Source of the DNA: Lingula anatina | Taxonomy: Eukaryota > Animalia > Brachiopoda | Assembly: GCA_051362555.1 (NCBI GenBank) | Contig: CM120640.1 | Location: 37,157,967-37,221,966, forward strand | DNA length: 64,000 bases | Direction: 5' to 3' | Part shown: positions 2,649 to 55,225 of the stretch, one piece after another | How the letters are laid out: the number at the start of each line of letters is the position of its first letter | How positions within the stretch are numbered: the stretch's first letter is position 1 | Notes under the pieces: model-generated | What the model saw: the letters and a program-made list of their open reading frames with translations, nothing else | What the model was told of the DNA's origin: nothing | Database searches by the model: none | Position numbers and translations under genes: made by a program

Positions 2649-5600
2649 TTAAATGGGATTTTCCTTGATACCACTGTCTTCTTGTGAATCCTGCTTCACA
2701 TCTTCTGTACAGTTTGTGCTTTTTTCAGACTTTTCTTCTATTTTCTCAAACGTTCCATTCTTGTCACTACTTGTCGGTGACACCGGAGGATCAGGTAGAG
2801 GGCGACTGTGTTGACTGCCCCTAATCCTTCCTGGAACCTGACTGCTATTAGATTCAGAAGACGGGCTTTTTGATATTTTCTCCTTGTGACGCTTCCTAGA
2901 ATTTGAAGGAATATTTAATTGAATTCAAGTTGTTGCTCATACTATGTAAAAATCATGATACTGTGCATGGCATAACTGCATGGTTTTGAAATATAATTGG
3001 ATACTTTTACTATTTTGGCAGATATGTCTGAACTTGAATATTTTTAGTTTACACGCATTACAATAGGGCAAGTTTCAGGTGAATTACCCTGAATAATAAT
3101 ATGTGTAGGTTTGTTCCTTTAATATACATACCATCTACTACAATTGTTATTATGGTTTATACAATGACATGTAGGTGAATTACCCTGAATAATAATATGT
3201 GTAGGTTTGTTCCTTTAATATACATACCATCTACTACAATTGTTATTATGGTTTATACAATGACATGATATTCCCTCACCTTTTGAATCTGATGAGTAGA
3301 ACTGTAAGAACAACTAAGAAGGCCAGAGATATGACACATGCTATAATAATCCCAGCTAGAAAAAAGAAAAAATTGTAAACATAATTTGCAGGTTTAATTT
3401 GTTATAATTTAAGATTATTTGCTTTTTGTTCCTTTTATGAACAAGCAAAGTCATTCACTGTTTTTTTTTCCCTTATTTATTGGATCTATAAGTTCTGTTA
3501 GTCTTAGATATGTTGTGAGATATATGTGTACTCAATCTCCATAAATATACACATCTTAAGAAATTATGATGAATGAGTACAACTTGGCTTATATGGTAAC
3601 AAAACAAGTAAATTTCTTTTTTATTATAATTTCAATCCTGCAAGACATTACTACCCAAACCAGAAATAATTTACTTTTTTACCATTACTACAAAAGAAAC
3701 AATGAAAATCTTATTTCACCATGCTTTGAATAGCTCTTTTTTTGTTCAATTCATAGCATACTATACATACCTATAGAGGGTTCATTATTTGCATCTGAAA
3801 TAATGATTATATAGGTCCTTTAATAGTTTGTTAGTGAAGATTATGCAATTGAAATCAGGACAGTTCCCAATACAACCCATCAACTTGCTCCCAGATTATG
3901 CCACATGAAAGATGGACACGCAAAAGGGGATGTCAGATTTTTTTTTATATATGTGAAACTCATAAGAGAAAGCCCCAAATTTTTAGAATATTTTTCTAAC
4001 CTGAGAATAGAACTTTTACCTGGCAGTGTGTGTGTATTTTCCATCTCTGCCAACTTCTCTGTATTTTTATTTTCTTCCTCCGTATTCATCTTGACTGTAG
4101 TTGTTGTTGAGGGAGGTTCAGTGGTGGGGATATAGTTTGTAGGGCTGCACTGCACAGTCACAGGTTGGGGGGCTAGGAAGATAAATAACTGTGAATTTAT
4201 ACAGGTACATGTGTGAAGCAAAATTCAAGAAACTATGTGCGTAATATGAATGGACATCGGATATAGCAAAACTATGAGACTAATGCATAAGAAACAACTC
4301 TTAAATCCAGACTCAAATGAGGATTTTTTGCTTTAAATATAAACATATTTTGTACATGATTATATATCAAGTTTCTAGGAATCAAAAGTTTGAAATGTAT
4401 TGTGTATTTGTATTTGAACAAGTGTTATGAAGCTTGCGAAATGTTGTTTCCAGGTATTTGTCCTGATTAAGGATGTGCTTTTTCTTCTGAACATCTAACA
4501 TCTTCACATAATAGAATTTAATTTGCTGCTTTCTTGTCATTGGACTAACGTTGGTTTTGATCATCAAATGTTTACTTAAATGATTTTTTTTTTCAATTTT
4601 CAAGACAAACTCACACTTGAAATTCATCCAAAATCCTTTCCCTTCTTGCTGTCCATCTGCCACAAATCGCACCAGAACGGAACCAAATTTGGTTGTGTAG
4701 TTGAAGTTCCTGTGCAAACTGCCGCATCGCACTATGTTGTGGTGACCATCATATATACGTATAAAATCCCTTTGACAATCCTTACTCCATTCTATTAGGG
4801 CATCGACAAAAGTCAAGAGAAGTTTCGCATCTGGCTTTGTGGTAATATTACACGTACAGTCTGTCACTGGGCCATAGTTGTTTGGGTAGTTTGGTGATTT
4901 GATGAAGCCTGTCAGTGTGCTGTGAACTCCACCACGGATACACATGTCCAGGGTGTCTTTAACTGAAAAGAAAAAAAATCTTTGAAGAACTCCTTTATCA
5001 TGTAATTGTTGTTCCTTTTAAATTTTGCGTTACAGTGTTTGGCATTAAGGATGAGTGACTTATTATTTGAGAAGTTATTTGTACTAAAGGTACTGTAGAG
5101 TTTCAGGACTTAATACATGTCTGTGGCATATGTTGGGGGAGGGGTAATTCTACAGAATATTCTAGAAACTACATATTACGATCATGTTTTCAATAGCTTT
5201 CTTTTAATTCCTGATGTCAACTTCATATCACATGTATATATTGATTGATTTATTCATTCACTCACTCATTCATTCAAAAGATAAAAGACCAACTTTTGCT
5301 TTTCTGAAACTGGCCCTGGTTTACCTGGTATACAGCCATACTGTACATAGTTATATGTACTGTATGCACTACACCATTGCATCCATGACACTGTCACAGT
5401 TGTAGAACATGTGCTCTTTCCGACGCATTCCTGGAGCTTGGCATCTGTGTCTGTGGAAATGACATCAGTGCAGTCCCCCTCCTGGTATTCACACTGGTTA
5501 GGCTGGCGACTGATGCCTTGTATGGCTTTGGTGATCATGATCATGTCTAGTTGACTGCACTTGCTCAGGTCTATCTTTGGTACTCCGTAGGAATTGAAAC

Positions 5601-6364
5601 AGCGACTGGCTTCATGGAGTTCTTTTAACAAAAGAAGTGTGATGCAGTTGATTTCGGCTAAATTCTAAATGAGCAATGTTTGCAGTCCTATACCATTTAA
5701 AGAATTAAGTGCACTAACCTATTTCTTAACCAAGAAGGAAAAAAAAGCTTACACGACAACATAAGTTTTACATAAATTTTTTAGTAAAAAAAAATTGAAA
5801 ATAGCCAATAATTCTTAGATATATGATTGAATTAATTTCATGTTAAATCATGCCTTTGTAAGTTAGGTTTACAGTCTTGAAGTGTCTTCCCTATCATTTA
5901 CTGCTCTTGACAGAACATCTGTGGTTCCCTTATTATAGACACTTTCAAACTAACTGCCATCCAAAAGTATTTAGAATTGACCTTGGTCAGATGCACTATT
6001 GCTAGTAATTTTCCACGTCATTATGTAAAGCAAACGCTGATCACCACAATTTTTAATATTCTCTTTTTCCTCATTATTACCAAATTTTACATTTTCCCTT
6101 TTTGTTTGGAACAAACTTAACTTGTTTACAGAGTTAAATGCTTACAATGCACTCATACAGCAATTAAATTTCATTTAAATCTGTTGACTTCTTTTTTACC
6201 ATCTTTTGGTTGTTTTTCAAGTAACTTTTTCAAAACTGCTAAAATTTCAAGAAATGTCTTAAGAAGCCTTAATACTTACTATAGTGTCCACCTATGCTCA
6301 GTACTCCCATTGCAGACATGGTAAATATTAGTATTTTCCATCTATTCCCTGTCCAGTTGTCCAT
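2649..6364 (-). CDS. Gene 1: SUEL-lectin + CUB type I membrane protein, ~409 aa, 7 coding exons
   Basis: Hand-spliced GT-AG exons: 6280-6364 (signal peptide MDNWTGNRWKILIFTMSAMGVLSIGGHY), 5325-5621 (SUEL-like, ...CVGKSTC...YNYVQYGCIP), 4615-4962 (CUB, GFIKSPNYPNNY..CTC..GKGFW), 4020-4172 (VTVQC + Thr-rich stalk), 3771-3794 (24-nt microexon), 3280-3355 (TM AGIIIACVISLAFLVVLTVLLI-RFKR), 2649-2895 (tail, TAA). Exon lengths keep frame throughout. Confidence 0.88.
3077..3267. repeat. Direct tandem duplication, 2 x 96 bp, intronic
   Basis: aggtgaattaccctgaataataat...tatacaatgacatg at 3077-3171 recurs identically at 3173-3267, in the last intron of gene 1. Confidence 0.95.
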
Positions 6365-9683: not shown

Positions 9684-10669
9684 TCAGTGGGGGCATCCTC
9701 TGTGTCCATGCCTTAGCACGCATTCCTTTCTGTGCCTCCTCATCAGTTCTTGCTGAGGATTGGTACGAGTCCGCAGACTAGGAAGAACAAACCATGAATG
9801 TGATTAATATAGAGCTGGCTTTTATTTATTTTGTAAAGGAGTGTTTACTATTCAACAGTTTGTTCTAAATTTTATTGTTTTATTTTTTTTTTATTTTAAA
9901 ATAAAGGTCAAATTCTGTAATTTCTAATGATTTTTTTATCCCATGCATATTACATCAATATTTAAGCAAATTTAGTTAATGATGATACTATAAATGATGC
10001 AGTACTTGATACTCACATTCTCACTAAAATGCCCACCACAACAATCAAGAGAATGCTACCAATTACTGATGCTGCAATAATAGTCACTGAAACAAAAGGG
10101 AAAAAATATAGCTATTTTGTGAAGCACATTTTAAAGTAGATCATGCCACAAGCTGAGTCACTATGTGTAAAAAACTATACACTGTCAAAGGGACATGTAC
10201 CCTTCTCAGATGTGTAAATATATTAAACATGACCTTATAGATACAATGAGCATGATGTTGTTGCAAATTTGGGGAACTGCTTTGTCTTCTTTGTTAATAA
10301 TTTTTTTAGTTTCTGTCCAGCTTATGATTAAAAGTGGGTGTATTATGGGTAGTTATGTGCAAATTATCATGTCTCACCCGTGAGAGAATCATTGGCATCC
10401 CCATACTTTGAAGAATTTTCTTCTTTGTCTGAAAAAATTTAATTTAAATACAACTTATTGCACATTATGATATGTATCTTTGCACTAGTGGAAACTGGAA
10501 ATCTTCCAAAAGAGATATTGTAAAAATGCTGATTTTTGTTATTATTTTTTAAAAAGATTAGTTTAAAATGGTGTTGCTAAAATCGTACACCGATAAGTTT
10601 TTATCTGTAGAAACACTGACCAGTAGATTTAATGGATGAAGGTTATTTTACCAGGTCATAGTTTCTCTC

Positions 10670-10709
<40 letters not shown>

Positions 10710-13700
10710 TTATTATTTATCATTAATTAAGGTAACTGTTATTTATTACTTTATGTGATATCTGAAACTAGGCAGTTGGGGCATCTAGGGCCTTAATTAA
10801 AAAAAAAGACAAATGAGATTGCAATGTACAAGTTATAAAATCTGACCTTTTTCCAGGGTCTTGTCACCTTGCTTTTCATCCCTTCCAGCATTTTGCACTG
10901 GGCTGGTACTGTCTGTTTGCAGGAGTTGGTTTTTTCTTATGTTTGTAGATTTATGGATAGGACCTCTACCACCCTCAGGCTGACTCCTGCTCTTGAATTT
11001 CACTGCTTCTGTTGTTGTTGTCAAAGATTTGGCACTTGCCTTTTGGACCTCATTGAAGTCTGATTTTGTATCTGTTATGTTCTTTTGTCTCCTTCTTTGC
11101 CCCTTCCTATGGATTTGTCTCACATCAGTTCTTTGGGGTTGTTTAGTTTTTCTTGTGTAGCTTCTGGGAATGGGTATGGTTGTTGTCTTTTTTGTTGTTG
11201 GAGTGTTAGTGGTGACTGTTGTAGTTGGAGTAGTTGTTGTTGTCGTGGTTGTTGGTGTGGTAGTAGTGGTTGTTGTAGTAGTAGTAGTAGTTGTGGTTGT
11301 ACTGGTTGTAGAAGTTGTGGTGGTTGTGGTAGTTTGGGGCCTGGTGCTGGGAAGGCTCTGGCATTTCACATGCACTGTTTCTGTCTTAGGATGTACTGGA
11401 ATAGGAGAAAAAGTGTTTAATTGTCATTAAAAATCTCAGTGTGTGTCCACTGCCACAAAGTTAGTGGAATAACAGTCGTGGTCTACACCTTTTTTTCTCA
11501 GGTGCTGAGAAACTATTCTCGGTACAAATACAGGGAATTCAGATGGCACAGAAGAGCCTGCTATCATAAGTGGCTATAGCTAGCTATGTTAAATTAATGT
11601 TGGCTAATAACAGAATTATATTGTACATAAGTTCTGTTGGGACAAGAGTAGGCACATGGAAATAAATGGAAATTAAAATGTATCGCTGTAAAAAGGGATT
11701 AATGGCGTAACTATACTGGTCCTTATTTTCACAGTTTGAACAAAAGAACCTGTGTGATGGCCAAAGCATGTAGTTTTGCATATTTTTTTTTCAAGTGTCA
11801 CACTGTAAAGAATATTATAACTATCCAACTTACTGTATTACCTTCATATTTCAACAAGAATCCTTCTTGTCTGGATGATTTGTACCAATCAGAGTCAAAA
11901 GCAACTGTTAATGGTTTCCCATAAGTGGCGAATTGCTTGGGGCTGTAACTCCCACAGTAGTTTTCCTCACGTCCATTTTCTTTGATGCTAAGTCGGTCTT
12001 GTTCACATCCCTTGCTATATTCCAGTTTCATCATGACCCGTGTTATCAGCAGCCTGCTGCCCTCTGGTGGCACAAACTCACACTGACAGAACGTTCTGTC
12101 TGGATAGGGTCCAGGGTAGTTTGGAGAGCTGATGTAACCAGAAGATTTCACCTGATCTGCTGGGCCACAGATGTCGTGTACAAGATTTCCTATAAATAAA
12201 GTTGTGATATTTCTAAATTTCTGCTGCTTGACAAATTCCTTTCAGAGAGATTCAAATGATTTACAGAATTGTCACTCTAAGAGGGCTTTCCCAATGTAAG
12301 TATGGTTGTATGTAGATGAATGCAACTCCACGGGGACTCTTGCTTAATGCAATTAGTTTGACTGAATGGCATCATGTGATCATGTGCTCCGCTTTTTCAC
12401 TTCGTTTTAAGTGCGACCCAAAGCACACGAAAGTTAATCACCCCTAGCTGCTTGAGGAGGTGTGTCATTCAGTTAATCTGATTGCATTCAGTGAGAGTCC
12501 CTGCATATTTGAATCAATCTACACAGAACAATAGTTTCATTGGGAACCTGCCCTAAGAGGATGAAAAGTTCACTGACAAAAATATTTAGCCATGTCTGTT
12601 TCATTAGCACGAAGTAACTCTAACACAAGTTGCATATTATTTCTGTTTACTGTTTAGTGAGCATTTTACAAAAACATATCTTGGAGAGAATGTCCAAAGT
12701 ACTGAAGAAAATTGCCCTGATGGTCCAGTAAACAGTGTCATTCTTTAATTCATATAATTCTGTCGAATCCTCTTTGTGGCTCCAACAGGAAGAAAAGTTT
12801 TGAATCTGCAGAAAATAATATGAATATGATATTGTTTATTACAGAATTTTAAAAGTATTTTTATAGAAAAAAAATGAAAGATTGTACAAAAGATATTTGA
12901 ATTACCTTGCACACACTCAAATTCCACATACATGTAATCACTAAACTGGTGGCAGGCGGAGAGAAAATACAGCATCCCCGTGATGCGACAGTTACTGCGC
13001 CCTGTGCACTTGAGGACATCTGCTGGTAGCTTTGGACAGCCATCTTGGTCATAATCGCAACCACAGTCATTGACATGATAGCCACAGGATCTGTTATTGC
13101 CTGATGTTACCTAATATTACAAGTTTTGTCTTTTTATCATATGTATACATTTGTTAATTTATAATGTTTGCATAAAAATTAATGAGGCTTGATGAGCATG
13201 GGTAAAGTGCTATCAGTGTTGAGATATAACTGACTGATACAATGAATGTAAGATTATGAAATTTTTATTGTGCAGGATAGGGCATTTTGTTCAAATCATG
13301 AATATAAATACAGTGTACATGTATCAAGAGAGGGTTTTCATAGGTCGCTATTTTTTTGTATCGCGTGACAAGAATGAACTTATCTTTGTAGTTGAAATGG
13401 GTAAATACAAGTTAAACATATTTGATGCAGACATTATGGCTTAATGATATTTAAGTGATTATGTGAACTGTACAATACAAACAAAACAAAGCATAGCTAT
13501 GAGAAGCTAAAAAATGGTCACTGTAAGATTGTAGTCATAGAAATTGAATACTGTATTTGCAAGTGTCACATATTTTCCCTGATGCAACATGTATCCTTTA
13601 ATTAGCAACCATCAATATATTTAAATGTACAGCACTGACTTCAAATTTTATTTTAAGATGAAATGAACAGCATAGAGAGTCCTGCTTACTCTGAGTCCAG

Positions 13701-14210
13701 CTTTCTTGATGTTGACCACTTTCCCCCTAGGACAGCTAGGGCTGATGGTGGGTATGCCGCCACCTCCCCAGCAAGCAGAGCGAATGTCATCAGCTGGGAA
13801 GAAAACAAACAAAAATCAATTAAAACAAATCAGATATCCCAAGATTTGATTATGAAAGTTACCTTTTTTAGTAAATTGTATAAAGTTCCAGTTTGACTTT
13901 TGCTTGTATTTAGAGTTTTGCTTTAAGTATATATTTTTCTTATTTTTCTCATCCGTATTCAGAAATTAAAATGAAGGGTATAATATTGTCTTGCTTACCA
14001 GCACATATCAGGAAAGTGGTGCATACACAGCTGCCCCTCATTTTTTGATGATAATATTGCTATTTTCAAAGGTAAAATCATGCATTAAGTTATCAGGACA
14101 AAGTGCTCAACAAACATAATATTAAAACACTTACCTTCAACCCAGGATCCTATTGATAGAAGAAACATCATATCCACGAGGCACAGAACATTTTTTAATA
14201 TTCTCACCAT
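9684..14210 (-). CDS. Gene 2: SUEL-lectin + CUB + mucin-like stalk type I membrane protein, ~498 aa, 8 coding exons
   Basis: Exons 14135-14210 (signal peptide MVRILKNVLCLVDMMFLLSIGSWVE), 13690-13793 and 12906-13110 (SUEL-like domain split by a phase-0 intron), 11842-12189 (CUB, GYISSPNYPGPY..CQC..EGFLL), 10847-11395 (VHVKC + poly-Thr stalk), 10378-10428 (51 nt), 10017-10086 (TM VTIIAASVIGSILLIVVVGILV-R), 9684-9777 (short basic tail ...HGHRGCPH*). All GT-AG and in frame. Confidence 0.87.
10671..10720. repeat. (TTTA)n microsatellite
   Basis: Run of ttta/attt units in a gene 2 intron. Confidence 0.85.
12281..12553. mobile_element. MITE, probably PIF/Harbinger (Tourist-like), in a gene 2 intron
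   Basis: About 90-bp imperfect terminal inverted repeats (ttcccaatg..tgtagat..gggactct..aatgcaat..actgaatg versus its reverse complement at ~12462-12553). Flanked by TAA on both sides (12278-12280, 12554-12556). Non-coding, 273 bp. Confidence 0.72.
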
Positions 14211-17476: not shown

Positions 17477-17750
17477 TTATTTCCATATGGCATACTTTTT
17501 GTTTTTCTTTTGAGAACTAAAAGAAAAAAATTCTTTATGATCCTTTCATCACATCTTTGGTTGTATTTCCTCATTCTTGTATCACATCTTAGGAGTCTGT
17601 ACACTGGATGTAGTTACACAGGACTAACATCATCTGTAATGGAAAAAACTATGAAATTATTTGTGCAAACATCTCCAATTTTAGGATTTTTGTAAACAGG
17701 AACTGTTGTCTGTACATAATAATTTTGCTGCCTCAGGATTTACTAAGTGG

Positions 17751-17781
<31 letters not shown>

Positions 17782-20700: not shown

Positions 20701-20895
20701 TGCCAAAATTATTGAAGAATTTGTAATGAATTGAATGTTGATTAATTCTATTGAATGCTGTCATGCCATTTGAACAAAAAAGTAATTCAACTAACCTATA
20801 AAATCCTGGCTTTTGCAGACATTTTTCAACAGAAATGTTGATGCCAGAAGTAAAATCCTAGCAGTAATAAGCTGGGTTATTTGAGTCACCAACAT
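17477..20895 (-). CDS. Gene 3: SUEL-lectin + CUB type I membrane protein with a very short tail, ~386 aa, 6 coding exons
   Basis: Exons 20796-20895 (signal peptide MLVTQITQLITARILLLASTFLLKNVCKS), 19921-20235 (SUEL-like, FYGI..CNGRQRC..YLQVNYTCIP), 19273-19626 (CUB, GFIGSPNFP..DCGC..YCG..ARGFW; absent from the ORF track), 18468-18740 (VTISC + S/T/E stalk), 17877-17955 (TM IITGVVVGCLILIAVVIVIVLVF-R), 17477-17516 (SSQKKNKKYAIWK*). The choice of last exon is less certain. Confidence 0.83.
17751..17783. repeat. (TAAA)n microsatellite
   Basis: About 8 taaa units. Confidence 0.85.
19075..19239. mobile_element. Possible degenerate short non-autonomous DNA transposon
   Basis: Ends cagggc...gcccctg form a short inverted pair with a T-run after the left end. 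No TSD is evident and the sequence is decayed. Confidence 0.3.
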
Positions 20896-22102: not shown

Positions 22103-22188
22103 ATACTCATTTTTTTTCTATTTCACCAACTTACAGAAAATTTTGCTTTATTATTATTATTATTGTTGTTGTTGCTTTATTTTATTTC

Positions 22189-24014: not shown

Positions 24015-24016
<2 letters not shown>

Positions 24017-24062
<46 letters not shown>
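24017..24062. repeat. (CA)n microsatellite
   Basis: About 23 perfect AC units. Confidence 0.95.
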
Positions 24063-37779: not shown

Positions 37780-40131
37780 TTATTTCTCCAGATAATAAAT
37801 AAGAAAAAAAATTGTACACATGGAAACGATTGAACTGCCATGGAGTGGGGAGGCTGTGTTTGCAGCTTTTCTCTTGGAAGTTGCTGAAAGAAAAAAAGTA
37901 ATTGTTACTTATATCTCATTGCATTCTTTTTATTATGCTTTGAAAGAGAAAACGGTACACAGATAGTAGTAAGAATATTATAGAAATATTCATTAACATG
38001 AACGATAAACATTTTAAAGTTAGTTTAAACAGGCAATGAGAAAAAAACAGTAAATGCCATTTATTTAGATTTTAACAACACTAAGCTTTATGAACTAAGA
38101 TTATGTAAATTTGGTAAACAATAGATTAACATTTGCAGCACTTAAAAATTGGAATTATATCATATATATATAAACTTCTACCTTACCTTCATTTTCTTCA
38201 CTCTTAGGAACCGATTTCTTTTCTTGGTTGTCTTTGTGTCCAGGTTTTTCTGAACCATATGCAGTGTTATTGTTTCTGTCTTGTCTATTTTTTGCGACTT
38301 TTTCATCAGCCTGTGTGCTGTTACCCGGGCTTTCTGATGTCATTGGAGGAATGGTCATCTCCATTAGTGTAGGGTCATTTGTCTTGAGTTGACCGCAGCT
38401 GACTTTGATGTTAGACCCCACAACTGGAATAAAGAGTGTTGCAGGATTATAATGACTGCTGCAGATATTGGTGCAACGTGTGCTTTTAATGTGTGTATTT
38501 TTAAGAAAAAAAGGATATGTTGGTTCAGATGGGTTTTATTCAAACTTAATCACATATACCATAGTTGAAATGATTGCACTATGGCATACTTGCTGGCATT
38601 TCTAAAACAGTGATTCTGATAGACATAGAATTGCTTTTTTTCAGAGTGGATTTTGATGAAAAATGGGGAAAAAATGCCCCTTTAATCTATTTATTTATCC
38701 AACAATATGCTTAAGTCCAATGATACTGGATTACAACTATACGCACATCTGAAATGGAGCCAGAATCCTTTGAGTGTTCTGGTGAAATACTGGAATACTT
38801 GACTGCTGACATCGTTGGAGTCGGAGTAGAAATAAATCTCTGCCATACGACTGGGAACTCTGATTGTTGTATTAAAAATCTGGCCACATTTTCTCTCTTT
38901 CTCATCGCCATTCTTGACCATCATCCAGTCTGTGCACTCTCCATCTGCATCTCTCTCCAGTAGGAGTTCATATATTTCCAGTTCCACCCCGCTGTCCCCC
39001 CATGTTGCCTCTAGGGTGCATTTGCATGCATGTGATGGCCCATAGTGGTTGGGATAGTTTGGGGTGCGAATGTACCCTTCTGTAACCCATTTTTCATCAT
39101 TTGCACATATGTCGAACACTGATGTCCCTGAAAAGAAAAAACAAGGATTTTACTTTTTGTCTTGGGACTTTGGGAAATTTTTATTCGGTGTCCCTTTTAA
39201 ACATATATTACAACTGTTATGATGTTTTTTATTATTATTCATATCTTCTATTTTTCTTTTTTTTTTTTTTTTTCAGTTTCCTGTTTTAGTTCTCAATTTT
39301 TTTTTAGTTTTTAGTGTAGATTAGTACTGACTTTTATACAAAGATTTCTATAAGGAGTACACATTTAAAAATTAGTGCCATTAGAGGAAGTAAAACAATT
39401 TCTGTGTTGCACTCACTTGGTATGCACATGTACTCCAAATGGAGATAGTCGCTGTATGTATTTTGACAGTTTGGCATTGACGCCTGCATCACATAGGTGG
39501 TGCAGTTAACCATCCCCGTGCACTTGGTCCAGTCGTACGCCACCATGATGTCTTTGGACTCATCCGTGCAATCATCTGGGCAGTAGGTACACTTGATGTC
39601 ATCGCTGCCAGCCCTGTGACATTTGTCAAAGTTGTGGTTTGGCCATTTTCTTGGGGTAGTTTGTCCGTGGAATGCTCTCCTCATCAGGATCATCCCTGGC
39701 CCTCCCGGCTCGGCGCATGACATGGTCACCTGGGGTTTGCCCACTTTGAAGCACTGGCTGGCTCGCTTTAGCTCTTAAAAAAGATAAAAGAAGAAGTGAA
39801 AAAAGGAATGTTATAGGCATTCTTTTCAATGTTTTTTTTCTTTTCATGAAGTTAGTCTTATTTCTGTGTCTTATATTTCCTGTGAGATATTCAAGATAAA
39901 AGATTCTCTTTTTGGTTTATATTCTCAAGAGTATTCATCAATTTTTTATTTATAATAAGTCATGAATTGTCATGTAAAAATTTGGTTGCATTGATGGAAA
40001 ATATATTTGACACTCAATGTGCATATATACAAATTTACAAGGTGTAGATTGTACTTACCCAGTGCAAACCCCATTATTGGTGGCAAAAAATAGAAAAGCA
40101 GCACAGTTGAGACTCTGATGTCCATCTTCAT
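37780..40131 (-). CDS. Gene 7: SUEL-lectin + CUB protein, probably GPI-anchored, closest paralog of gene 6, ~383 aa, 5 coding exons
   Basis: Exons 40059-40131 (signal peptide MKMDIRVSTVLLFYFLPPIMGFAL), 39417-39773 (SUEL-like, 357 nt as in gene 6), 38747-39127 (CUB, 381 nt as in gene 6), 38187-38423 (IKVSC + stalk), 37780-37883 (ATSKRKAANTASPLHGSSIVSMCTIFFLIYYLEK*). Confidence 0.87.
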
Positions 40132-44100: not shown

Positions 44101-44370
44101 CTCTTATTTAAAACCCTCTAAATTAAAAATGAAATAAAAGTTTGTCACCACTGCAATTAGACTGACACACCATGTTGAACATTTACGTTTAAAAAGCTTA
44201 AAGTAATGTGTGACAGCTAAGAAAGTAAAGCAATTAATTCTTTTGAAATTAAATTTAATTTGTTGTGTATAAATTTCTTGACACTTACCTTGTACTCCTC
44301 TCCCACTGATGACAATGACAGTCACCAACATCAGAACAGCATGTAAAATACACAATGAGTGGTTACTCAT
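41145..44370 (-). CDS. Gene 8: divergent SUEL-lectin + shortened CUB type I membrane protein with a long cytoplasmic tail, ~468 aa, 6 coding exons
   Basis: Exons 44289-44370 (signal peptide MSNHSLCILHAVLMLVTVIVISGRG), 43330-43632 (SUEL-like, ..CTGLTNC..LTASYECIP), 42731-43030 (degenerate CUB, YMFSEQFP..CQC..GRLWIKI), 42320-42478 (INLTC + Thr-rich), 41925-42003 (TM WLIGIAFASAVVIFFLAITLIYF-RRR), 41145-41628 (tail). Confidence 0.85.
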
Positions 44371-45905: not shown

Positions 45906-48900
45906 CTATCTAAAGGCAGGGTTTTTATATCCCCTGATGTTTTGACTGCTGTTAATAGATCTTGGCCTGTTCATTGAATTACTGCTTTGTGTTCTGCTAG
46001 GGGGCCCTCCATTCCTTCCCTGGTTGTACTTGTATCTGCCCATAGGTTTTTCCTGTAGATGGTGTGATTTTCCAGGCAGTGGCATGGTATTACTGCCATG
46101 GTGTTGAATTGGGTTGGAGTAGTTGACTTTGTTACTGTTGCTGTAGGTACTTGAAACGCTGTCGCGCTGGCCTCTCTGAGCTGAGGCACGGAGACTGCGG
46201 TGGCGATCTCTCTGCTCTCTGTGATTTCTTTAAAAAGAGAAGAAATATACTGTATTCTACAACCTTGCTATTAATGTTTACATTACATCTGAGCCTAGCT
46301 GCCTTCTGTCATTGATTAATAAAAAATGACCTAGAAAAGACTTTACACAGAATCAGAGACAATCCAAGTTAATGAATTTGTGACAGTTTTTGAGAAACTA
46401 AACCCTGACTTATTAAAATATGGGCTCTAACTGATTTGACTGTAAAAATTGATTTTCAATTTCAAATTACACAAAAAGATGATGATTAAAAGATTAAATG
46501 TGTGTTATCTTCATATTATTTTCAAAAGAATATGTCCCGAATTTTGATGCCACGAAACATTAAAAACACTGTAAAAGATTCTGACAAATTTTATAATTTG
46601 TCAAGGTAAAAATAATCACTTTCATTTATTCTCAGAGAAATTAACTCACTTTGCTTTAAGGCAAATTCCCACTATAATCCCCACAATCAAGACCAGGACT
46701 GCCAGACCACCCAATACAATACCTGAAATGAATGTTTACATTCCAATTTAGGTTGTAGTAGTAGTAGTAGTAGAAGTGCTGATGATTAAATTTACTTAGA
46801 AGAACAGAAGCTTAATCTTGGCTATATAGAATACTAAGCATTTTAGGTACCAGTCATAAATTATAGATTACACATGCATTATCACACAATGAATCAAGGA
46901 GATTTGTAAAAGAAATTATTGACATTTGCAATTGAAAATGAGCAAATAAATGCGCTATGGTCCTTTTTTCTGTAGAATATTTAATATAGTAATATGTTAA
47001 CTGATGAATTTGAAAACATACCCATATTAATATTAGGATCTTCAATGAATGTAGCTTGGGTCGTTGTAGAGTGTTCTGATACGTTGATGGAAACCGCTTC
47101 GTTTATTTCATTTAGTATGATGCCGATTTCTACTGTGTTTGTTGGTTGCACATCTGTAGTTGTTCTTGGTGTTATCATGTCATCAGATTTGTACACGTTT
47201 GGTCTTTGGGAAGGAGAGACAGGATAGGGTGTAGAAGAAGCATCAAAAGTTCTCATTTTGGTGGTGGTGGTGCTAGGTGTAGTTAGTGTTGTGGATGAAG
47301 TGGTGGTAGTGGTGCGCCTTGTGGTGCTTCTTATGGTTGTGGTAGAAGTTGTAGTAGTAGTAGTGGTGGGAGGAGGAGTTGTAGTAAGTTTGACTGTTGT
47401 AGTACGAGTTGTAGTTGTTGTGGTGGCAGGAGTTGTAGTAGTAGTAGTAGTGGTAGTTGGAATTGTAGTTGTAGTTGGTGTTGTGGCTGAAGTTGTAGTT
47501 GTTGTTACTGGGATGCTTGAAGTACAGTTCACTGTCACAGGACCATTCCTGGCTGTAAATATAAAATAATATAAATATTAACCAGGATGTTCTTTACCAT
47601 GCAACATAGTATTTTGGATTACGTGTTAACATATCTTTTTATATTGGGTCACTGCGCACAAGGATTTCATATATTACATTAAATATATAGTTTATTATGA
47701 GCATAGAAAAAATTTTAGATGGAACAAACGAAAATTGGACAATATATTTTTATGATAAAAGCATTTGGTAATTTCCTTACCATTATAATGAAGCTAAAAT
47801 CTATGAATGGACAATTACATTTCTATGATAAAAGCAATCTGTAATTTTCTCACCTTTATAATGAAGCCAGAATCTCCCTGCATCCTTCTGAACAGTATTG
47901 ACAAAAGTGATGTTGACCTGTCCACCAGCAACTTCATACATCATGACATTACTTCTTTTGTCACAAGAATAAACACTGGTGGACCTGCTGTGGCTGTTTA
48001 CTATGAGTTGCTGCTGATGCTCACACCCTAACTCGTCGTACATGTGGAGCTCAATAGCCGATATGCTGACGCCATTGTTGGGCTCTGCGGTAATTGCACA
48101 TGTGCATTTGCGAAAGTCGTTGCCTAGTACAGACCGTGGGTAGTTTTCACTGAGAATGTGGCCATCGTCTAATATACGGTCTCCCTCCTCACACATAGTA
48201 TTTGTAATACTCACTGCAAGTATAACAATACAGAAATATAAGATTGTGTAGTGATGGCATCAGGCATTGATTAGATTATAAATATTTTTATGTTTCTTTT
48301 CTACCAAATCTAAATATAATAATGATGATGAGGAGGAGGAGGAGGAGAAGGAGGAGGAGGAGGATGGGAGCATTTATTAAATGATGAATTATTTATTGCA
48401 TGTTATGATGGACAAAAGGAGCAATTACTAAAATGATGAATTATTATTTCATTTTATCAACATTAATTAAACAATCTCCTAACAGAAGAAAAAAAGATAC
48501 AAGGCACACATTTCATCCAGGAATTTCTACTGACCTGGTATACATTCATAGGTGATGTTGACATAGTTGCTGGACAAAAATTGACTTCCGCACATGCCCT
48601 GGACCCTGTTCACAGGCACATTACACTCCCTGTTCCCGAGACAATCCCCAACCATGTTTCTGTACACCCCTGGGGTCCTGACAGCCAGGGGGACGGTGCA
48701 GTCTGTATCCCTGGGGCAGCACCTGTGGGGGCAGGAGAGGTCAGGGGCACGACCATAGATGGCGTCATGGATCCTTATGTGAGTGCCGACATCACAGAAA
48801 AGCGTGATGTGGCCAGGCAGCACGCCATGGCACATGGACACAGTTGTCTTCAATACTGAATTGAATGCAGACCAATGAAAGTATAAGAAGTATTGTTCTT

Positions 48901-51900
48901 GCATATTGGTTAATGTATTGTCTCAAGGCAGCATGATTAATTTTCACAATAAAAATACCTGTTGATATTATTTCTGATAAAAAGTTATAATGAAATCGAA
49001 CTGCCAAGCTTTGAATATTTTCATGCTCTGATCACACTTTAAATTTAAGCTAATATATGCGTCAGTCGCAAAGAAAAAAATGAGATGTATTGTTTAGCAA
49101 AGTATAAAATGGCATATTTGTTTGGTTTCCTGATGAAGAAAATTAATTTGTAATACATACCTTTGACACATTCATAGACTACATGCATGTAGTTGCTATA
49201 GCCTCCACCAAATGCACACTTGACTCCCCACATTGGTCCCTGCTCAACCAACACAACACAGTGACTCTGACCTGAGCACTGCTCAACCAACTGCTCATAG
49301 GATTCTGGTCGGCTCTTTTCCACATGAACTTGACAGTCCGATTCTTTTGGACAACAGATGTCACCACAGCTGCTTCCGTAACTTCTCCCATAAAATGCAC
49401 TGATAATCCTGATAAAAGTTTTCGGCTCTGGGCAGCTCAGTTCCATGTGTGGAGGAATTTTTCCAAAGCATCTTCCCTGAAGTTGGTAATTAGGGTTGGT
49501 TGCCAGAACCTTGTAGGAAGTCAAGAAGTCATCTTGCCCTGTAGTATCGCCCCCTCCATATTGTCGTCTACGGCTGGTGTCAGAAGCTGTGTCTGTTGGG
49601 CGTGGGGTATTGTTTTCATCTGGATTTCTATATCTGTAGGGCTGTGTGACCTTTTGTGTAGTAGGTATGGTTGTTGCTCCAGGTTTTGGGGTGGTGACTC
49701 CCACTGGTTCAGTGCAGTTCAGTGTGACATTTCCAGAAGAGGCTGGAAGTGTTAGCAACACAAAATGATCATTTGTCAAACGTATTATTATTTTTATGTG
49801 TAGACTGTGCCTTAATTTATGTGTACCTTTGTGTGAATGTGCGTGTGTGTACCTATGTGACTTTAAGCATTCAAAAGGTAGTTACCTAATATGAGGTTTT
49901 ATATTATTTCGGTGCATTTGTATTTTCCCTTACCTGTGTACTCTAACCAGAATTGACCGACATTTCCAAGTAAAGTGTTCAGGAAAGTCACATTGACTTG
50001 ATTGCGTGTGGAGTTGTACATCCAGAAATCTACTCTGTGTTCACATGAGAAGCTGCTAGAGGGCTTTCTTTGCTCTTCAAATGTCAGCGTTTGCAGGTCT
50101 TGACACCGCGTGCCATTGTAAGGACTAAAGTCAATGGCGCGGACAGCTATGGTGGCAGCAGGTGGGGCAGTGAGAACACATTTACATTGGCGGAGGTTAT
50201 TCCCTGGGATCTTTGTAGGGTACTTCTCACTCATGATGTAGCCTTGATCTAGCATGTTGTCTTCTTTGGTGCAGAAGTCGTTAACAATACTCACTAGATT
50301 ATAAAGAAAACCAAATGAATGATTGAGGATGTGTGAATTTTTTTTCTTTTTTATTAAGATTAACTCGAAAAAGGTATCAAGTTGAGAGAAATTGTTTTAA
50401 TGGGAAATTGGAAATAGAAAGAAGTTCTGATGTGGGGAATGTATTATTTTTGGCTGAATATTGAAAAATCATTTGATAGATTAACTTCACATAACCTGAG
50501 GCTGCTATTTAGTTGTGCAGGGTCATGTAAAAGAACTTATTTATACACGAAATTTGCAATTGTTTTTCTTTTAATTATGGATAATGCAGTGGTTATCTTT
50601 TAAAAAAAACCTATAATCTAGATGACCACACTAAATTTCAAGCAGTGACATTAATTTTATTAATATTGTACTGAATGGCATAGATAAGCCTTTTCACAGT
50701 TTCAGTTGGTACCAATATGGTCATGACTTACCTGGGACACACTGGTAGGTGATGTTCATGTAGTTACTGTTGTAGAACTCGCTTCCACAGGTCCCGTGCA
50801 GCCGTTCCACAGGTATACTACACTGTGTTCTACCCAAACACTGACCCAGTATGGCAGTATACAGGCCAGGATTTCTGGTGCGCACTTTCTCTGCACAGTC
50901 ATCCTCTCGAGGACAACAGCGGCGAGGGCACGGTTTGTAGTCGCTTCTTCCAAATATGGCATCTCTAATATGGATGTAGGTACCAATGTCGCAGAACAGG
51001 TTCATCTCTGGAGGATACTCACCATAGCACTTAGAGATGGTTGTGACCTTGGCTGTAAGAAGTTAATTAAAGTTAAAGAAGTGAGGGTTTATAACATTTT
51101 AGTTAATGAGATGTTTTTGCGATTGTTAACATTTGCAATGATTTTAAATAAGAAATCTATTAGTGTAATAGAACTATTAATTTACTTCTTGTGCCAGATT
51201 ATCCCATATTTTCCTACTTATTTAAAATCGTGTACAGTTCTTTGTTTAAAGTTATATTCTTCACAGAACCTTTGACACATTGGTAAGCAACCATAAGATA
51301 ATTGCTGTATTTCCCTCTGCCACACTCTGCAGTCCATAGTTCCCCTTGCTCTACCAATACAATACAGTGCGTCTGACCAGAACACTGGTCAACTATCTGT
51401 TTATAGGACTCGGGACGGCTAGCATTCACATGGACTTGGCAGTCATTATTGCTGGGGCAACAGATGTCATTGCATCGGTCATTTGTGTTCAGTCCATACA
51501 CTGCAGCTTGAATCTTAATAAAAGTTTTTGGTTCTGAACATGTGAGTTCCATGTGCGGTGGACTCTTTCCAAAACAGCGAGATTGGTACCTCCAGGGTTC
51601 TTCCTGGCTTTGGTCACCAGTGTCGCCACCTTTTGTGTTGGGATCCGGTACTATAAGGATAGATCTGATGCTGGAGCCAGGGTCAACTTTCACCATAGGC
51701 TGTGTCACTGGTGGGGTGAGGGTGGTTGTGGTGGTAATGGAGATTGCAGAGGTGCAGTTGACTATCACAGTCCCCCAGGATGCTGAAAATTTAACCAATG
51801 AGGAGTCTTGTTACCTCAGAATCACCAATGTCACTATGTTTAAAGATTGCATCTTTGGTCGACACATCTACCGGTAGATAGCAGCTTACAAAACAAAGTG

Positions 51901-54900
51901 TAGAAATTGAAAATGACATTCAAGGCACCCTGTGAAAAAATTTTAAGCATTTTCCACAGAATTAATCCAATAAAATATCTATTTATCTTACCACTGTATT
52001 CTAGCCAAAATTTCCCTTCATTGCTAAACAAGGTGTTCACAAATTTTATATTCAATTCATTTGCTAGTCCTGTGAAGAATATTTTTTTGCATTTTCCACA
52101 GAATTTATCCAATAAAATATCCATTTATTTTTCTTACCACTGTATTCTAGCCAAAATTTCCCTTCATTGCTAAACAAGGTGTTCACAAATTTCATATTCA
52201 GTTCATTTGCTGGCCCATTGTACAGTATGGTATCTGTGATGTGTTGACAGCTGTAGGCTGCTTGGTCAGTTTTTGTAAACATGGCTAACTCTTGATGCTC
52301 TCTGCAGCCTGGTCCACTGTACATATTGATGTCAACAGCACGTATGGTGATTGAACTGTTCTTGGCTGTGGAGAGTCGGCACTCACAGGAACGTAGGTTG
52401 TTTCCTGGCACTTCTGCAGGGTAGCCCTCACTTTGGATGTAGCCCACATCAATGGCATTGTTCCCCTCCATGCATACTTCATTGACAATGCTAACTAGAA
52501 AAAATGAATGATGGGTTCTTGACCATTGGTTGACAATAGGAAAATGTTAACAGAATTGTTGAAGTTTGTAGCATATAGCTATTTGGGAATATGAGAGGAA
52601 GGGAAAGTCCCTCTTTGTGTAATTTGGACCCGAGATGGAAATTAGGATAGAAATATACTGTAAAAAAGTCATAATGCTTGAAAACTTAACAATTAAGGTA
52701 CAATTTACCATGGATATTGTTTTAGTATCTGCAAAAGAGCTAGACTGAGTGTATAAATTGGTATTCTTGGCAATGACCAACAGATAAATTTGATTATTAT
52801 TACCTGGTACACACTCATAAGTCACATTTACATAGGTGCTGACATGAAACTGATTTCCACACATCCCAGAAATCTTGTCCACTGGAATGGTGCACTCTGC
52901 CCTGCCCAGACATTGACCCAAGATGGCCGTATAAAGAGGAGGGGTCTTTTCCAGAAGCTTCTCTACACAGTCGGTCTCGGCAGGACAGCAACGCCTTGCG
53001 CAGGGTGTGCGATTGCTACGGCCATAGACGGCATCTTTGATGTTGATAAAAGTCCCCTTCTCACAATAAAGATGCATCGTGCCAGATGGTTCTCCATAGC
53101 AGTTGGATTGGGTTGTTATTTCAGCTGTTGTAGGAAAGTAGTGGAATATGACAAGTTTGACTACTGTTTCAGCAAGGAGATATGGCTAAGATTAACAACT
53201 TCTACTTAACATGATTATTGATTGTGCAAATGCAGTGAGAAATGTTCACTTTATGAAATCATTTTGATTTTATTTTTTTTCAAGATGGGATCAGATACAT
53301 GAAGTTTTACATACCTTTCACACACTCATATTTGACTTGTAAGTAGTTACTGTACTTTCCCCTGCCACAGGGAGCTGACCAAAGAGACGCTTGCTCTACC
53401 AACACTATGCACTCTTGTTGGCCAGAGCACTGACCAAAGATTTGGTTGTGGGTCTCTGGACGACTCATATTTACTGGGACCTGTTGAGAAAAAAATCAGC
53501 TTTATTTTCATCTTTGCAAAGCTTTAATTCTTAAAAAAAATTAATTAGCATGTTGACTCTTTGTGTTAGTTCAAATGCAAAATATTGCGTATCTAATGTC
53601 ATTTAGAAATTCAACTAAAGCAATAGAAAAAACCATTGATTTCCACTTTTTTAATTAGATCAAAATTGAGACAAAATAAAAACGGAAAATTCCAACAAAT
53701 AGGGCATTATGTACATTATAATATTTTAGAATAGATATATTATCTTTTATAAGATATAATGATGTCACATACATGTACTATATGTGCATATCCCATTTCC
53801 CAAAGGCACTACATTTTCCGGTCTTGTTCAAGTTCAAGCTATTCTAACTGTTAAGTTAACAGGTCTTAAAGGCAATGATATATTACAATTCCTTAATTAC
53901 CTGGCAGTCGTTGACTTGGGGACAGCACAGGTCCCCACATGCTGTGTCACTGCTGAGACCGTATACGGCAGAGATGACGCGCATGAAATGTTTGGGATCC
54001 GTGCACTCCAGCTTCATGTGGGGTGGAACAATGCCAAAACACCGTGATCTGGTTATCACTTTGATGTTAGACGCATGCTGGTGTTGACCTTGAAAAAAAG
54101 TTATCATCTAATTAAATACTTTGTTTTTTTCTTTTTGGGATACCTTTTAATAAATTTAAAGGAGATTGATGATGGTGCTTCATTATATAAGGCCTTTTTT
54201 TAAATGGATCATGCCAGTGCAAAGCCCTTGGCTGTTTGCATGAAACTTGACAATAAAGCTCCTCTATTTTTTTTTTATTAGTTTATACTGCACTCACTGG
54301 CATATCTAAAAATGCATTATAGGTTTCTCTTTAAAGATAACTGATAAAGTGGTATTTCATGATACTTAAATCTGGTCTGCTTTTGGCACATGAGTAATTA
54401 CTATTTGAGTGTTATTGTGTATGCAGTTTTAACAGATACCTGGTTTGGGTAATTATGCCCTTTTAGAGCAGAGAACTATATTGTATTTCAGCATAATTAC
54501 CTGGTGTAAATTAGATAACAATCTTTGTCTGAGTAACTTTGTACAGGTAGACTAACTTATACATGTATATGTAGAACAGGAGTGATGCTGTGTTGGATAA
54601 GTAGGTATCTTGTACGTGTAGATGTGTGTAGTAACATACAGACAGAATCTGATTTTTTCAGATGCATTTTTTTCAGTAATAATTTATCTTATTTGATAGT
54701 CAGTGTTCATTATATATTTCAACTGTTTTCAGTGTTTTTGGTCATGTTGTTGAGAGTGCTGGAACTACTTGTCATAGAAAACTGTACCCTGTAAGAGTTT
54801 TGAAAAGAATTAAATACATTTCACAAAATGATACTAATATACTGCTATTCATATTGAGTTATATGTTTACAGTGCATTCTTTGCTGAGATGGCAGAAGCT

Positions 54901-55225
54901 ATTTGTTAATGACTTTGGTCATGAAACAAGGTTGGCTAATCGCTTTGACTGTGGTCTTTCTCTAATGTGTTAATGGTACAAAATTGGCTCAAATTTTCTC
55001 TTTTTATGTTTGAAAACTTCTCATTGTGTAACACAAAATTGTGCTTATACAAGAATTCTTGAGCCACGTTTGTACTGACAAAAAAGTTCCATTTTGAATA
55101 GTTTCTTTGACTGAGCTTCTTTCATGATCTATCTTATAGACATACAACTTTAAAAAGAAAAAATATTCAGACTTACCATGAACAACAACAAATGTGAAAA
55201 ACCCCATAAACCACAGCAATAGCAT
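45906..55225 (-). CDS. Gene 9: large type I membrane protein, (SUEL-SUEL-CUB)x3 + mucin stalk + TM + tail, ~1487 aa, 14 coding exons
   Basis: Exons 55177-55225 (signal peptide), 53901-54088 + 53315-53480 (SUEL-A1), 52804-53124 (SUEL-B1), 52138-52494 (CUB1), 51270-51782 (linker + SUEL-A2), 50732-51052 (SUEL-B2), 49934-50293 (CUB2), 49161-49742 (linker + SUEL-A3), 48535-48855 (SUEL-B3), 47854-48213 (CUB3), 47022-47552 (poly-Thr stalk), 46650-46722 (TM GIVLGGLAVLVLIVGIIVGICL-KAK), 45906-46227 (tail ending GYKNPAFR*). All three SUEL-B exons are 321 nt and the frame is kept throughout. Confidence 0.88.
48328..48363. repeat. (GAG)n trinucleotide repeat, intronic
   Basis: gaggaggag... run following gatgatgat in a gene 9 intron. 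Confidence 0.8.
51929..52215. repeat. Tandem duplication (~146-bp offset) of the CUB1 exon 3' end, its donor site and intron start
   Basis: cttaccactgtattctagccaaaatttcccttcattgctaaacaaggtgttcacaaattt occurs at both ~51987 and ~52133. The flanking intronic gcattttccacagaat..atccaataaaatatc is also duplicated. Confidence 0.92.

What the first reader, a model, noticed from the sequence alone, without database searches (positions are those of the whole stretch)
2649..55225. Tandem cluster of nine divergent SUEL-lectin + CUB cell-surface genes: a candidate recognition-code family
Seen in sequence: nine co-oriented genes share a signal peptide / SUEL-like / CUB / stalk layout with phase-1 domain exons. 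Their ectodomains are strongly diverged, their anchors differ (TM versus GPI-like), and their tails are unrelated. All reading frames are intact. Established knowledge: SUEL/RBL domains act as sugar-binding lectins and as protein-binding modules (latrophilin-teneurin; C. elegans EVA-1 with SLT-1/MADD-4), and CUB domains mediate extracellular protein interactions. Inference: this is an old, retained and diversified family that could act as a combinatorial surface code (neuronal wiring as with Dpr/DIP, or immune, allorecognition or gamete recognition). I do not recognise a characterised family with this architecture.
Basis: partly seen in the sequence, partly recalled or inferred. Interest (0 to 1): 0.9.

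Follow-up and report, generated by a model that had tools for sequence, protein, structure and literature searches.

The report
Ancient lectin-like surface receptor gene cluster
This stretch of lamp-shell (brachiopod) DNA holds nine related genes for predicted cell-surface proteins whose lectin-shaped tips lack the residues needed to grip sugar; several have one-to-one counterparts in segmented worms and sit in the same order in another animal, so they are likely an ancient set of protein-recognising receptors that we found no description of.

Summary
Confirmed, with corrections. Nine intact minus-strand genes carry 14 SUEL-like and 11 CUB domains. Gene 1 is one 1,487-aa protein, (SUEL-SUEL-CUB)x3; RNA joins 12 of its 13 introns. 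g3-g6 end in GPI-like signals and g7 has a 2-residue tail. Seven of nine match uncharacterised Lingula anatina RefSeq models.

New here: this is not a brachiopod-only expansion. The annelid Owenia has separate counterparts of g7, g9 and g3/4, and a Lingula-only clade is rejected (AU p=0.0004). A contig from another animal keeps g3/4-, g5/6- and g7-like genes in the same order and strand.

0 of 14 SUEL domains keep the Glu required for sugar binding; 5 of 11 CUBs keep the full Ca2+-site motif. Allelic variation is low except in g2's head.

Best reading: an old, conserved cluster of predicted protein-binding co-receptors, probably developmental or neural. The 'combinatorial code' is untested; allorecognition is unlikely for most members. 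I found no description in print. The scan noted similar SUEL-CUB receptors in abalone DNA before.

The parts
45906..55225 (-). g1: signal peptide, (SUEL-SUEL-CUB-linker)x3, Thr-rich stalk, TM, 109-aa tail; 1,487 aa, 14 exons
   Evidence: Model; 12 of 13 introns as RNA joints; RefSeq XP_013401280 (P0005) differs at 12 of 1,486 residues
41145..44370 (-). g2: signal peptide, very divergent SUEL and CUB, short stalk, TM, 163-aa tail; 468 aa, 6 exons
   Evidence: RefSeq XP_013400814 (P0004) 468 aa with 12 differences, 9 in the head; low RNA depth, no joints listed
37780..40125 (-). g3: signal peptide, 10-Cys SUEL with insert, CUB, stalk, GPI-like end; 381 aa, 5 exons
   Evidence: XP_013400825 (P0067) 3 differences in 342; low RNA depth
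32719..35116 (-). g4: closest paralog of g3 (62% in the head), GPI-like end; 371 aa, 5 exons (first exon predicted only)
   Evidence: XP_013400835 (P0172) 3 differences in 329; last intron seen as RNA joint 32825/33080
28728..31066 (-). g5: signal peptide, SUEL, CUB, Lys-rich stalk, GPI-like end; 373 aa, 6 exons
   Evidence: XP_013401104 (P0007) 1 difference in 373; RNA joint 29470/29786
24646..27497 (-). g6: signal peptide, SUEL, CUB, very short stalk, GPI-like end; 327 aa, 5 exons
   Evidence: RefSeq LOC106180139 (P0010) 1 difference in 327; AlphaFold pLDDT 82, pTM 0.73
17630..20895 (-). g7: signal peptide, SUEL, CUB, acidic stalk, TM ending VFRR-stop (2-residue tail); 374 aa
   Evidence: Owenia CAH1798752 (P0151) 42% identical in the head with the same TM end and stop; no RNA laid, no RefSeq match seen
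9684..14210 (-). g8: signal peptide, SUEL split over two exons, CUB, long Thr-rich stalk, TM, 32-aa tail; 498 aa (prediction only)
   Evidence: Open frame with GT-AG introns; CUB Pfam E=3.6e-15; no RNA, RefSeq or ortholog support found
2649..6364 (-). g9: signal peptide, SUEL, CUB, stalk, TM, 85-aa tail; 409 aa, 7 exons
   Evidence: XP_013419485 (P0002, auto-named 'neuropilin and tolloid-like 2') 4 differences in 409; Owenia CAH1798755 (P0088) 49% identical in the head with a conserved juxtamembrane stretch

Best explanation
The nine genes are an old tandem cluster of predicted membrane-anchored proteins whose SUEL-like domain lacks the sugar-binding residues, so they likely act as protein-binding receptors or co-receptors, each type probably with its own conserved partner in development or nervous-system wiring. 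Shown: the gene structures, both folds, loss of the rhamnose/galactose site, retention of the CUB acidic motif in most single-head members, separate annelid counterparts, and kept gene order in another animal. Inferred: a compact SUEL-CUB head is held off the membrane by an S/T- or charge-rich stalk; Ca2+-loaded CUB loops and the reshaped SUEL surface would bind protein ligands, as the latrophilin and EVA-1 lectin domains do. GPI-like g3-g6 and tail-less g7 could not signal alone and would act as tethers or co-receptors. g1, g2, g8 and g9 could couple to the cytoplasm.
For: Sugar site: 0 of 14 window SUEL domains have Glu at first-Cys+1, against 12 of 13 generic tandem-lectin domains aligned as control; 1 of 14 has the Lys and 0 of 14 have DPC. 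Mutating either residue dramatically reduces or abolishes binding in latrophilin-1 RBL (PMC2430599 passages). Folds: CUB Z 14.9 to MASP-1/3 (rmsd 1.8, 109 aligned); SUEL Z 8.9 to the latrophilin-3 lectin domain (rmsd 3.0, 87 aligned), tied within 1 Z with SUL-I 8.1. CUB Y/E/D/D motif: full in 5 of 11, partial in 2; these loops form ligand sites in solved CUB complexes (PMC8051872 passages). Age: Owenia P0151 and P0088 pair with g7 and g9 (SH-aLRT 95 and 99), and a Lingula-only clade of g3-g9 is rejected, p-AU 0.000367. Locus L005 keeps the g3/4, g5/6, g7 order on one strand. Constraint: 6 differences in about 2,070 head residues for six genes between assemblies; 47 of 63 listed coding codon changes in the RNA reads, mostly from the divergent P3 runs, are synonymous.
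Against: No ligand, tissue or cell type is known. Bulk RNA depth is low and the tissues are not given, so 'neural or developmental' rests on analogy only. g1 and g2 have lost the CUB acidic motif (4 of 11 domains). g2's head is polymorphic (9 of 190 against 1 of 240 downstream, Fisher p=0.006, one pair of haplotypes, noticed after the fact). Orthology of g1, g2 and g8 is not shown (long branches). The g3/4-annelid grouping is only moderately supported and partly rests on a shared insert. A non-canonical glycan site cannot be excluded from sequence.
Confidence: 0.55

Rival explanations
1. The members bind one another selectively across cells and are expressed in neuron-type-specific combinations: a true recognition code that works like Dpr/DIP but is built from SUEL-CUB heads.
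For: A mix of GPI-like and TM anchors, low-identity heads with type-specific inserts, low bulk expression and retention of types across phyla. Dpr/DIP and IgLONs include GPI-anchored members and are expressed combinatorially (PMC10084454 passages).
Against: Only about 4-6 ancient types are visible, few for a code. One-to-one retention fits fixed separate jobs equally well. There are no cell-type expression data.
Confidence: 0.15
2. They are auxiliary subunits or clustering factors for ion channels or receptors on the same cell, working like the CUB proteins NETO, SOL-1 and LEV-10 (SOL-1 and LEV-10 roles recalled).
For: Extracellular CUB plus TM with little or no tail (g7). The g9 juxtamembrane stretch is conserved to Owenia. 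NETO2 is among the CUB structural matches (Z 11.4).
Against: NETO ranks below many other CUB proteins. The architecture differs: one CUB, a SUEL domain, and no LDLa hit in Pfam. Four members lack a TM.
Confidence: 0.1
3. They are innate-immune or symbiont-sensing surface receptors that bind microbial glycans or proteins at a non-canonical site.
For: SUEL lectins of marine invertebrates have immune roles (PMC3269628 and PMC8878817 passages). g2's head is polymorphic. g1 is a six-SUEL array that would give avidity. g1 and g2 have tail tyrosines.
Against: The canonical sugar site is gone in 14 of 14 domains. Six of seven genes compared are nearly invariant in the head, and types are conserved across phyla, unlike fast-turnover immune clusters (the contrast is general knowledge).
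Confidence: 0.13
4. They are allorecognition or gamete-recognition proteins.
For: Tandem cluster of surface proteins; CUB occurs in spermadhesins and SUEL in egg lectins; g2 head polymorphism.
Against: Head differences between assemblies are 0-3 residues for six genes, and 47 of 63 listed codon changes in RNA reads are synonymous. 41-49% head identity to annelid counterparts is not what self/non-self or gamete loci usually show (recalled).
Confidence: 0.04
5. They are shell-matrix or extracellular-matrix organisers.
For: CUB and galactose-binding lectin domains occur in lophotrochozoan biomineral proteomes (PMC13425148 passages).
Against: 0 of 5 accessions searched (g1 twice, g2, g3, g9) occur in that paper's supplement, and the PF02140 row seen with an XP_ accession is another protein (2 of 5 places shown). 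Counterparts exist in shell-less annelids.
Confidence: 0.03

Closest known systems
EVA-1 / EVA1C (C21orf63)
   Same: Single-pass surface protein with RBL/SUEL domains that lack sugar-binding residues; a co-receptor for a protein guidance cue (PMC2430599 passages).
   Different: EVA-1 has two RBL domains and no CUB. Here each head is SUEL+CUB, four members are GPI-like, and there are nine clustered paralogs.
Latrophilin (ADGRL) lectin domain
   Same: Top-ranked structural match of the SUEL part (Z 8.9, tied within 1 Z with SUL-I); binds a protein, teneurin (PMC10084454 passage).
   Different: No olfactomedin, GAIN or 7TM part here. Latrophilin-1 keeps the Glu and Lys, which these lack.
Rhamnose-binding lectins (CSL3, SUL-I, SUEL)
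   Same: Same fold and eight-Cys core; best PDB sequence hits.
   Different: Those are secreted tandem lectins with Glu7, Lys86 and DPC. The window's domains have Glu 0/14, Lys 1/14, DPC 0/14, an N-terminal SQCF-type start, and often two extra Cys.
Ca2+-binding CUB receptors: neuropilin, NETO, cubilin, MASP/C1s
   Same: CUB fold (Z 11-15) and the acidic motif in 5 of 11 domains.
   Different: One CUB per head, preceded by SUEL. The Trp after the second Cys is replaced by Cys (CxC), and a sixth Cys follows in the stalk exon in 11 of 11 domains; a third disulfide is inferred. No F5/8, MAM, LDLa or EGF. The RefSeq name 'neuropilin and tolloid-like 2' for g9 is an automatic mislabel.
Dpr/DIP and IgLON (Wirins)
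   Same: A family of diverged, partly GPI-anchored surface proteins; a possible functional analogy.
   Different: These have Ig domains, not SUEL-CUB. Their binding network and combinatorial expression are shown by experiment; both are untested here.
Large SUEL/CUB/fn2 membrane proteins of bdelloid rotifers (e.g. P0023)
   Same: SUEL and CUB in one TM protein; PMC8878817 mentions SUEL in large bdelloid membrane proteins.
   Different: P0023 is 2,277 aa with many repeats and fn2. Its SUEL domains fall in a separate clade with similar long unnamed proteins.

Membership tests
SUEL / rhamnose-binding lectin | RBL fold with eight conserved Cys | tested here: met
   Eight Cys columns in 14 of 14 domains; Z 7.9-8.9 to CSL3, SUL-I and latrophilin for the g6 model
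SUEL / rhamnose-binding lectin | Glu at first-Cys+1 (Glu7 / Glu42), needed for sugar binding | tested here: not met
   0 of 14; control tandem lectin domains 12 of 13; requirement from PMC2430599 passages
SUEL / rhamnose-binding lectin | YGR and DPC-x-G-T-Y-K-Y-L motifs (Tyr27, Asp79, Lys86) | tested here: not met
   YGR 3 of 14, DPC 0 of 14, Lys 1 of 14; motifs from PMC3269628 passages
SUEL / rhamnose-binding lectin | Measured binding of rhamnose or galactosides | not testable with these tools
   Needs a glycan array or NMR/ITC
Ca2+-binding CUB domain | CUB jelly-roll fold | tested here: met
   g6 model Z 14.9 to MASP-1/3, rmsd 1.8 over 109; PDB profile hits cubilin E=8.7e-34
Ca2+-binding CUB domain | Tyr plus three acidic residues in the Ca2+ loops (exact Y/E/D/D pattern recalled, placed by alignment to cubilin and MASP-2) | tested here: inconclusive
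   Full in g3, g4, g6, g8, g9; partial in g5, g7; absent in the three g1 CUBs and g2; Ca2+ binding itself not measured
EVA-1 / EVA1C | Two tandem RBL domains, single TM, no CUB | tested here: not met
   Every head has a CUB; g2-g9 have one SUEL
EVA-1 / EVA1C | Co-receptor for Slit | not testable with these tools
   Needs binding and genetic assays
Neuropilin / NETO | Two tandem CUB plus F5/8 and MAM (neuropilin, PMC10084454) or LDLa (NETO, recalled) | tested here: not met
   Pfam on g9 (P0002) finds one CUB and no F5/8, MAM or LDLa
Dpr/DIP (Wirins) | Ig domains | tested here: not met
   No Ig hit in 7 full-length Lingula models
Dpr/DIP (Wirins) | Selective binding within the family and combinatorial neuronal expression | not testable with these tools
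   Only bulk RNA of unstated tissue was available
Allorecognition loci (Hydractinia Alr type; feature recalled) | Very high allelic divergence in the ectodomain | tested here: not met
   0-3 head differences in 6 of 7 genes; g2 has 9 of 190; only two or three haplotypes compared
GPI-anchored proteins (g3-g6) | Small-residue omega region, spacer, terminal hydrophobic stretch, no cytosolic tail | tested here: inconclusive
   Pattern seen by eye and hydropathy in g3-g6 and in annelid counterparts; no GPI predictor available; g6's stretch is short

The most novel reading that the evidence does not exclude
Lophotrochozoans carry a Cambrian-age, order-conserved cluster of SUEL-CUB surface proteins whose GPI-linked and transmembrane members bind each other selectively and label cell types. 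This would be a non-immunoglobulin wiring code for annelids, brachiopods and molluscs, with one fast-varying member (g2).
Probability: 0.15. Interest if true: 0.85.

Novelty: new variant of a known kind. Interest (0 to 1): 0.52.

Why it matters
Known cell-recognition families come almost wholly from flies, worms and vertebrates; what lophotrochozoans use is little known. Paralogs kept as distinct types, and in order, since before brachiopods and annelids parted (early Cambrian or earlier; date from general knowledge) point to fixed, non-redundant jobs. Pfam misses or under-scores many of the domains (no SUEL hit for g2, g3, g4, g9 or Owenia P0056 at E<=0.01), which probably explains why the family looks unnoticed. 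Named annelid counterparts make it directly testable with single-cell atlases and ectodomain binding screens. Function is still unproven, which caps the score.

Tried and rejected
Single-sequence AlphaFold of g6 failed (pLDDT 33); the alignment-based model worked.

Homodimer prediction for the g6 head gave no answer (score 0.05, mark 0.32; my alignment was not used). It is no evidence either way.

The run search listed no RNA holder by shared words; the nine runs came by species label. Run X4 laid only 2 reads. Read piles near 36,930-36,960, 41,720-41,750 and 50,338, and the joint 36958/41722, are poly-A/poly-G artefacts and were rejected.

No whole genome was held, and the rest of the L005 record could not be searched. 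So g8- and g9-like neighbours there, and the positions of the Owenia genes, are untested.

A longer tail for g7 was sought (6 candidate acceptors) and rejected because Owenia P0151 stops at the same place.

A fused g3+g4 database model (P0173) was rejected: g3 has its own terminal exon with RNA depth and its own RefSeq model.

ESM Atlas gave only generic CUB and SUEL clusters. The word-index searches found few relatives (4, 13 and 3 proteins), and only the best 150 of 1,529 HMMER hits were visible, so the taxonomic range is a lower bound. No named mollusc member appeared among them.

No SUEL or CUB exon was found upstream of 56 kb.

Paper searches: 0 hits; listings only, none describing this family by title or abstract start; 0 papers for 6 accessions; background; one search timed out. 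Subscription journals were not searched, and Figure 5 of PMC3269628 (RBL architectures) could not be seen; its main text has no 'CUB'.
Full report
WHAT IS THERE. The window is AT-rich, CpG-poor animal DNA. Profiles built from its own frames find 14 SUEL-like and 11 CUB domains, all on the minus strand, with nothing above 6 bits on the plus strand. Pfam hits 10 of 13 SUEL frames and 9 of 11 CUB frames at E<=0.1, only 5 and 7 above the curated cut-off. Exon assembly gives nine open models with GT-AG introns, from the ATG at 55225 to the stop at 2649. g1 is 1,487 aa: signal peptide, three SUEL-SUEL-CUB units (43-50% identical to each other), Thr-rich stalk, TM and tail. g2-g9 have one SUEL and one CUB. 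g2, g8 and g9 have TM plus tail, g7 has a TM ending VFRR-stop, and g3-g6 end in GPI-like hydrophobic signals. Domain exons are phase 1, except phase-0 introns inside two SUEL domains and phase-2 introns after the TM.

ARE THEY EXPRESSED AS MODELLED? Reads from four runs laid on 36,600-56,000 give 12 of g1's 13 introns as joints, mostly in run X7. A 7-read loose end at 49,745 matches, by eye, the exon across the 13th. So g1 is one gene. In X1 and X2 the first mate lies almost wholly on the plus strand, which fits minus-strand RNA. On 24,100-44,090, four runs show low depth over g2-g6 and only 2 of 21 testable introns reach the listing threshold. Near-identical database proteins are named Lingula anatina RefSeq models, uncharacterised except for an automatic 'neuropilin and tolloid-like 2' on g9. 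They match 7 of 9 models (g1-g6, g9) with 1-14 differences, some N- or C-terminally truncated. g8 is prediction only.

AGE AND CONSERVATION. A HMMER search of 1.84 billion representatives gave 1,529 hits, of which 150 were shown. Of 165 fetched proteins plus nine models, 33 carry both domains. The annelid Owenia fusiformis has P0151 (42% to g7 in the head, same TM end and stop), P0088 (49% to g9, conserved juxtamembrane stretch), P0056 (41% to g3 and g4, 43% to g6; it shares the 10-Cys SUEL insert and the FQYFTR-LKGFW loop with g3/g4) and a double-headed P0111. All four are on a contig of 37,288,061 bases; the g7- and g9-like accessions are three numbers apart, which hints at adjacency but does not show it. 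Ridgeia piscesae, an annelid (recalled), has a g3/4-type protein.

A SUEL-only tree of 61 rows shows cross-species groups for g7, g9, g5/6 and g3/4, only the g9 group starred. In a 15-row SUEL+CUB tree (g1, g2 and 6 non-window rows of the 25-row set left out), g7+P0151 and g9+P0088 are starred, and forcing g3-g9 into one Lingula clade costs 82.6 log units, p-AU 0.000367. I framed that test after seeing earlier trees, and long branches (g8, g5, g7, L005_D, P0111a) are present.

A scan of metagenome contigs returned 7 loci from 64 candidate stretches. Only L005, at 21.7 kb, is long enough to show neighbours; it comes from an intron-bearing animal of undetermined phylum, GC 49%. On one strand it carries the end of a TM gene with the family's VxVxC stalk start, a divergent SUEL-CUB-TM gene with a Tyr-bearing tail, then g3/4-like, g5/6-like and g7-like genes. 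That is the window's order (g1, g2, g3/4, g5/6, g7). The first two matches are positional only; the tree does not pair them with g1 or g2.

ANATOMY. AlphaFold with a 37-row alignment models the g6 head well (pLDDT 82, pTM 0.73). The CUB part matches MASP, C1s, cubilin and neuropilin (Z 13-15), and the SUEL part matches latrophilin, SUL-I and CSL3 (Z 7.9-8.9). The RBL sugar site uses Glu7, Tyr27, Gly83 and Lys86 plus Asn74 and Asp79 (PMC3269628 passages), and even E42D or K120R strongly reduces or abolishes binding in latrophilin-1 (PMC2430599 passages). In the window: Glu 0 of 14, Lys 1 of 14, DPC 0 of 14, YGR 3 of 14. Four non-window family members also lack the Glu, while 12 of 13 generic tandem-lectin domains keep it. 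The CUB Y/E/D/D motif is full in g3, g4, g6, g8 and g9, partial in g5 and g7, and absent in g1 and g2. Those loops are the ligand site in solved Ca2+-binding CUBs (PMC8051872 passages). All 11 CUB regions have six Cys, with CxC in place of CxW and one Cys in the next exon; an extra disulfide clamping a stalk-encoded strand is inferred.

VARIATION. Between the window and RefSeq models, six genes differ at 6 of about 2,070 head residues. g2 differs at 9 of 190, against 1 of 240 downstream (p=0.006; one haplotype pair, noticed after the fact). The P3 runs are about 3-5% divergent from the window, judged from read-identity bands. Of 63 coding codons touched by listed differences, 47 are synonymous. 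That count used all 40 rows shown (of 204) and 25 of the 40 rows shown (of 65).

HOW IT LIKELY WORKS. Shown: structure, folds, loss of the sugar site, kept CUB motif, cross-phylum types and kept order. Inferred: each type presents a SUEL-CUB head that binds a conserved protein partner, often Ca2+-dependently; GPI-like and tail-less members act as co-receptors or adhesion tethers; tailed members may signal. By analogy with EVA-1, the latrophilin lectin domain and neuropilin, a developmental or neural role is my best guess (0.55). A true within-family code (0.15), immune or symbiont sensing (0.13), channel auxiliary subunit (0.10), allorecognition or gamete recognition (0.04) and shell matrix (0.03) are the rivals. 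Five accessions are absent from a Lingula-including shell-proteome supplement.

KNOWN OR NEW. It is not a member of the sugar-binding RBLs, EVA-1, neuropilin/NETO or Dpr/DIP by defining features; it may work like EVA-1 or neuropilin. Nine answered full-text searches besides the accession search (listings only) showed no description of a SUEL-CUB receptor family, and the accession search found 0 papers. I read passages, not whole texts, of PMC3269628, PMC2430599, PMC8878817, PMC13425148 (plus a supplement search), PMC8051872, PMC10084454 and PMC9334734. Closed-access literature was not covered. Two earlier scan notes report SUEL-CUB receptors without the sugar site in abalone; I had reached that reading, before seeing them, and could not test their DNA. 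Verdict: a real, apparently undescribed, ancient family with a new pairing of known domains; function open. Interest 0.52.

Noticed in passing
window 58078-59007, minus strand: 3' end of another single-pass membrane gene just upstream and co-oriented: a TM exon ending in NRR and a tail exon ending ITPD-stop. No SUEL or CUB exon was found between 56 and 64 kb, so it may be a tenth member with its head outside the window, or unrelated.
   Followed up: partly
window 51929-52211: Two-copy 146-bp tandem repeat (90%) that duplicates the 3' end and splice donor of g1's first CUB exon into the intron; RNA uses the first donor.
   Followed up: partly
window 47736-47875 and 3077-3267: Similar small duplications beside splice donors: a 73-bp pair starting in the end of g1's third CUB exon, and a perfect 96-bp pair just after g9's TM exon.
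   Followed up: no
window 43330-43632 (g2 SUEL exon): 8 amino-acid differences in about 94 residues against the RefSeq model, far above the other genes; possible diversifying selection on one member.
   Followed up: partly
RNA runs X7-X9 over window 24100-56000: These runs carry the same species label but differ from the window at many fixed sites (most reads 90-99% alike), suggesting a distinct population or cryptic lineage.
   Followed up: no
L005:724-2106: An open frame that looks like a mariner/Tc1-type transposase (recognised by eye, not searched) sits inside an intron of the upstream TM gene.
   Followed up: no
L005:7940-8365: The tail of the g2-positioned gene has repeated N-V-Y / Y-D-N tyrosine motifs, like the (E/D)NDxY tails noted for an abalone SUEL-CUB receptor in an earlier scan note; the window's g2 tail has only two tyrosines.
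   Followed up: no
RefSeq scaffolds of 85,860 and 233,605 bases: The public assembly holds the cluster twice, probably as two haplotypes, with a truncated g1 model on one; gene counts from it would be inflated.
   Followed up: partly
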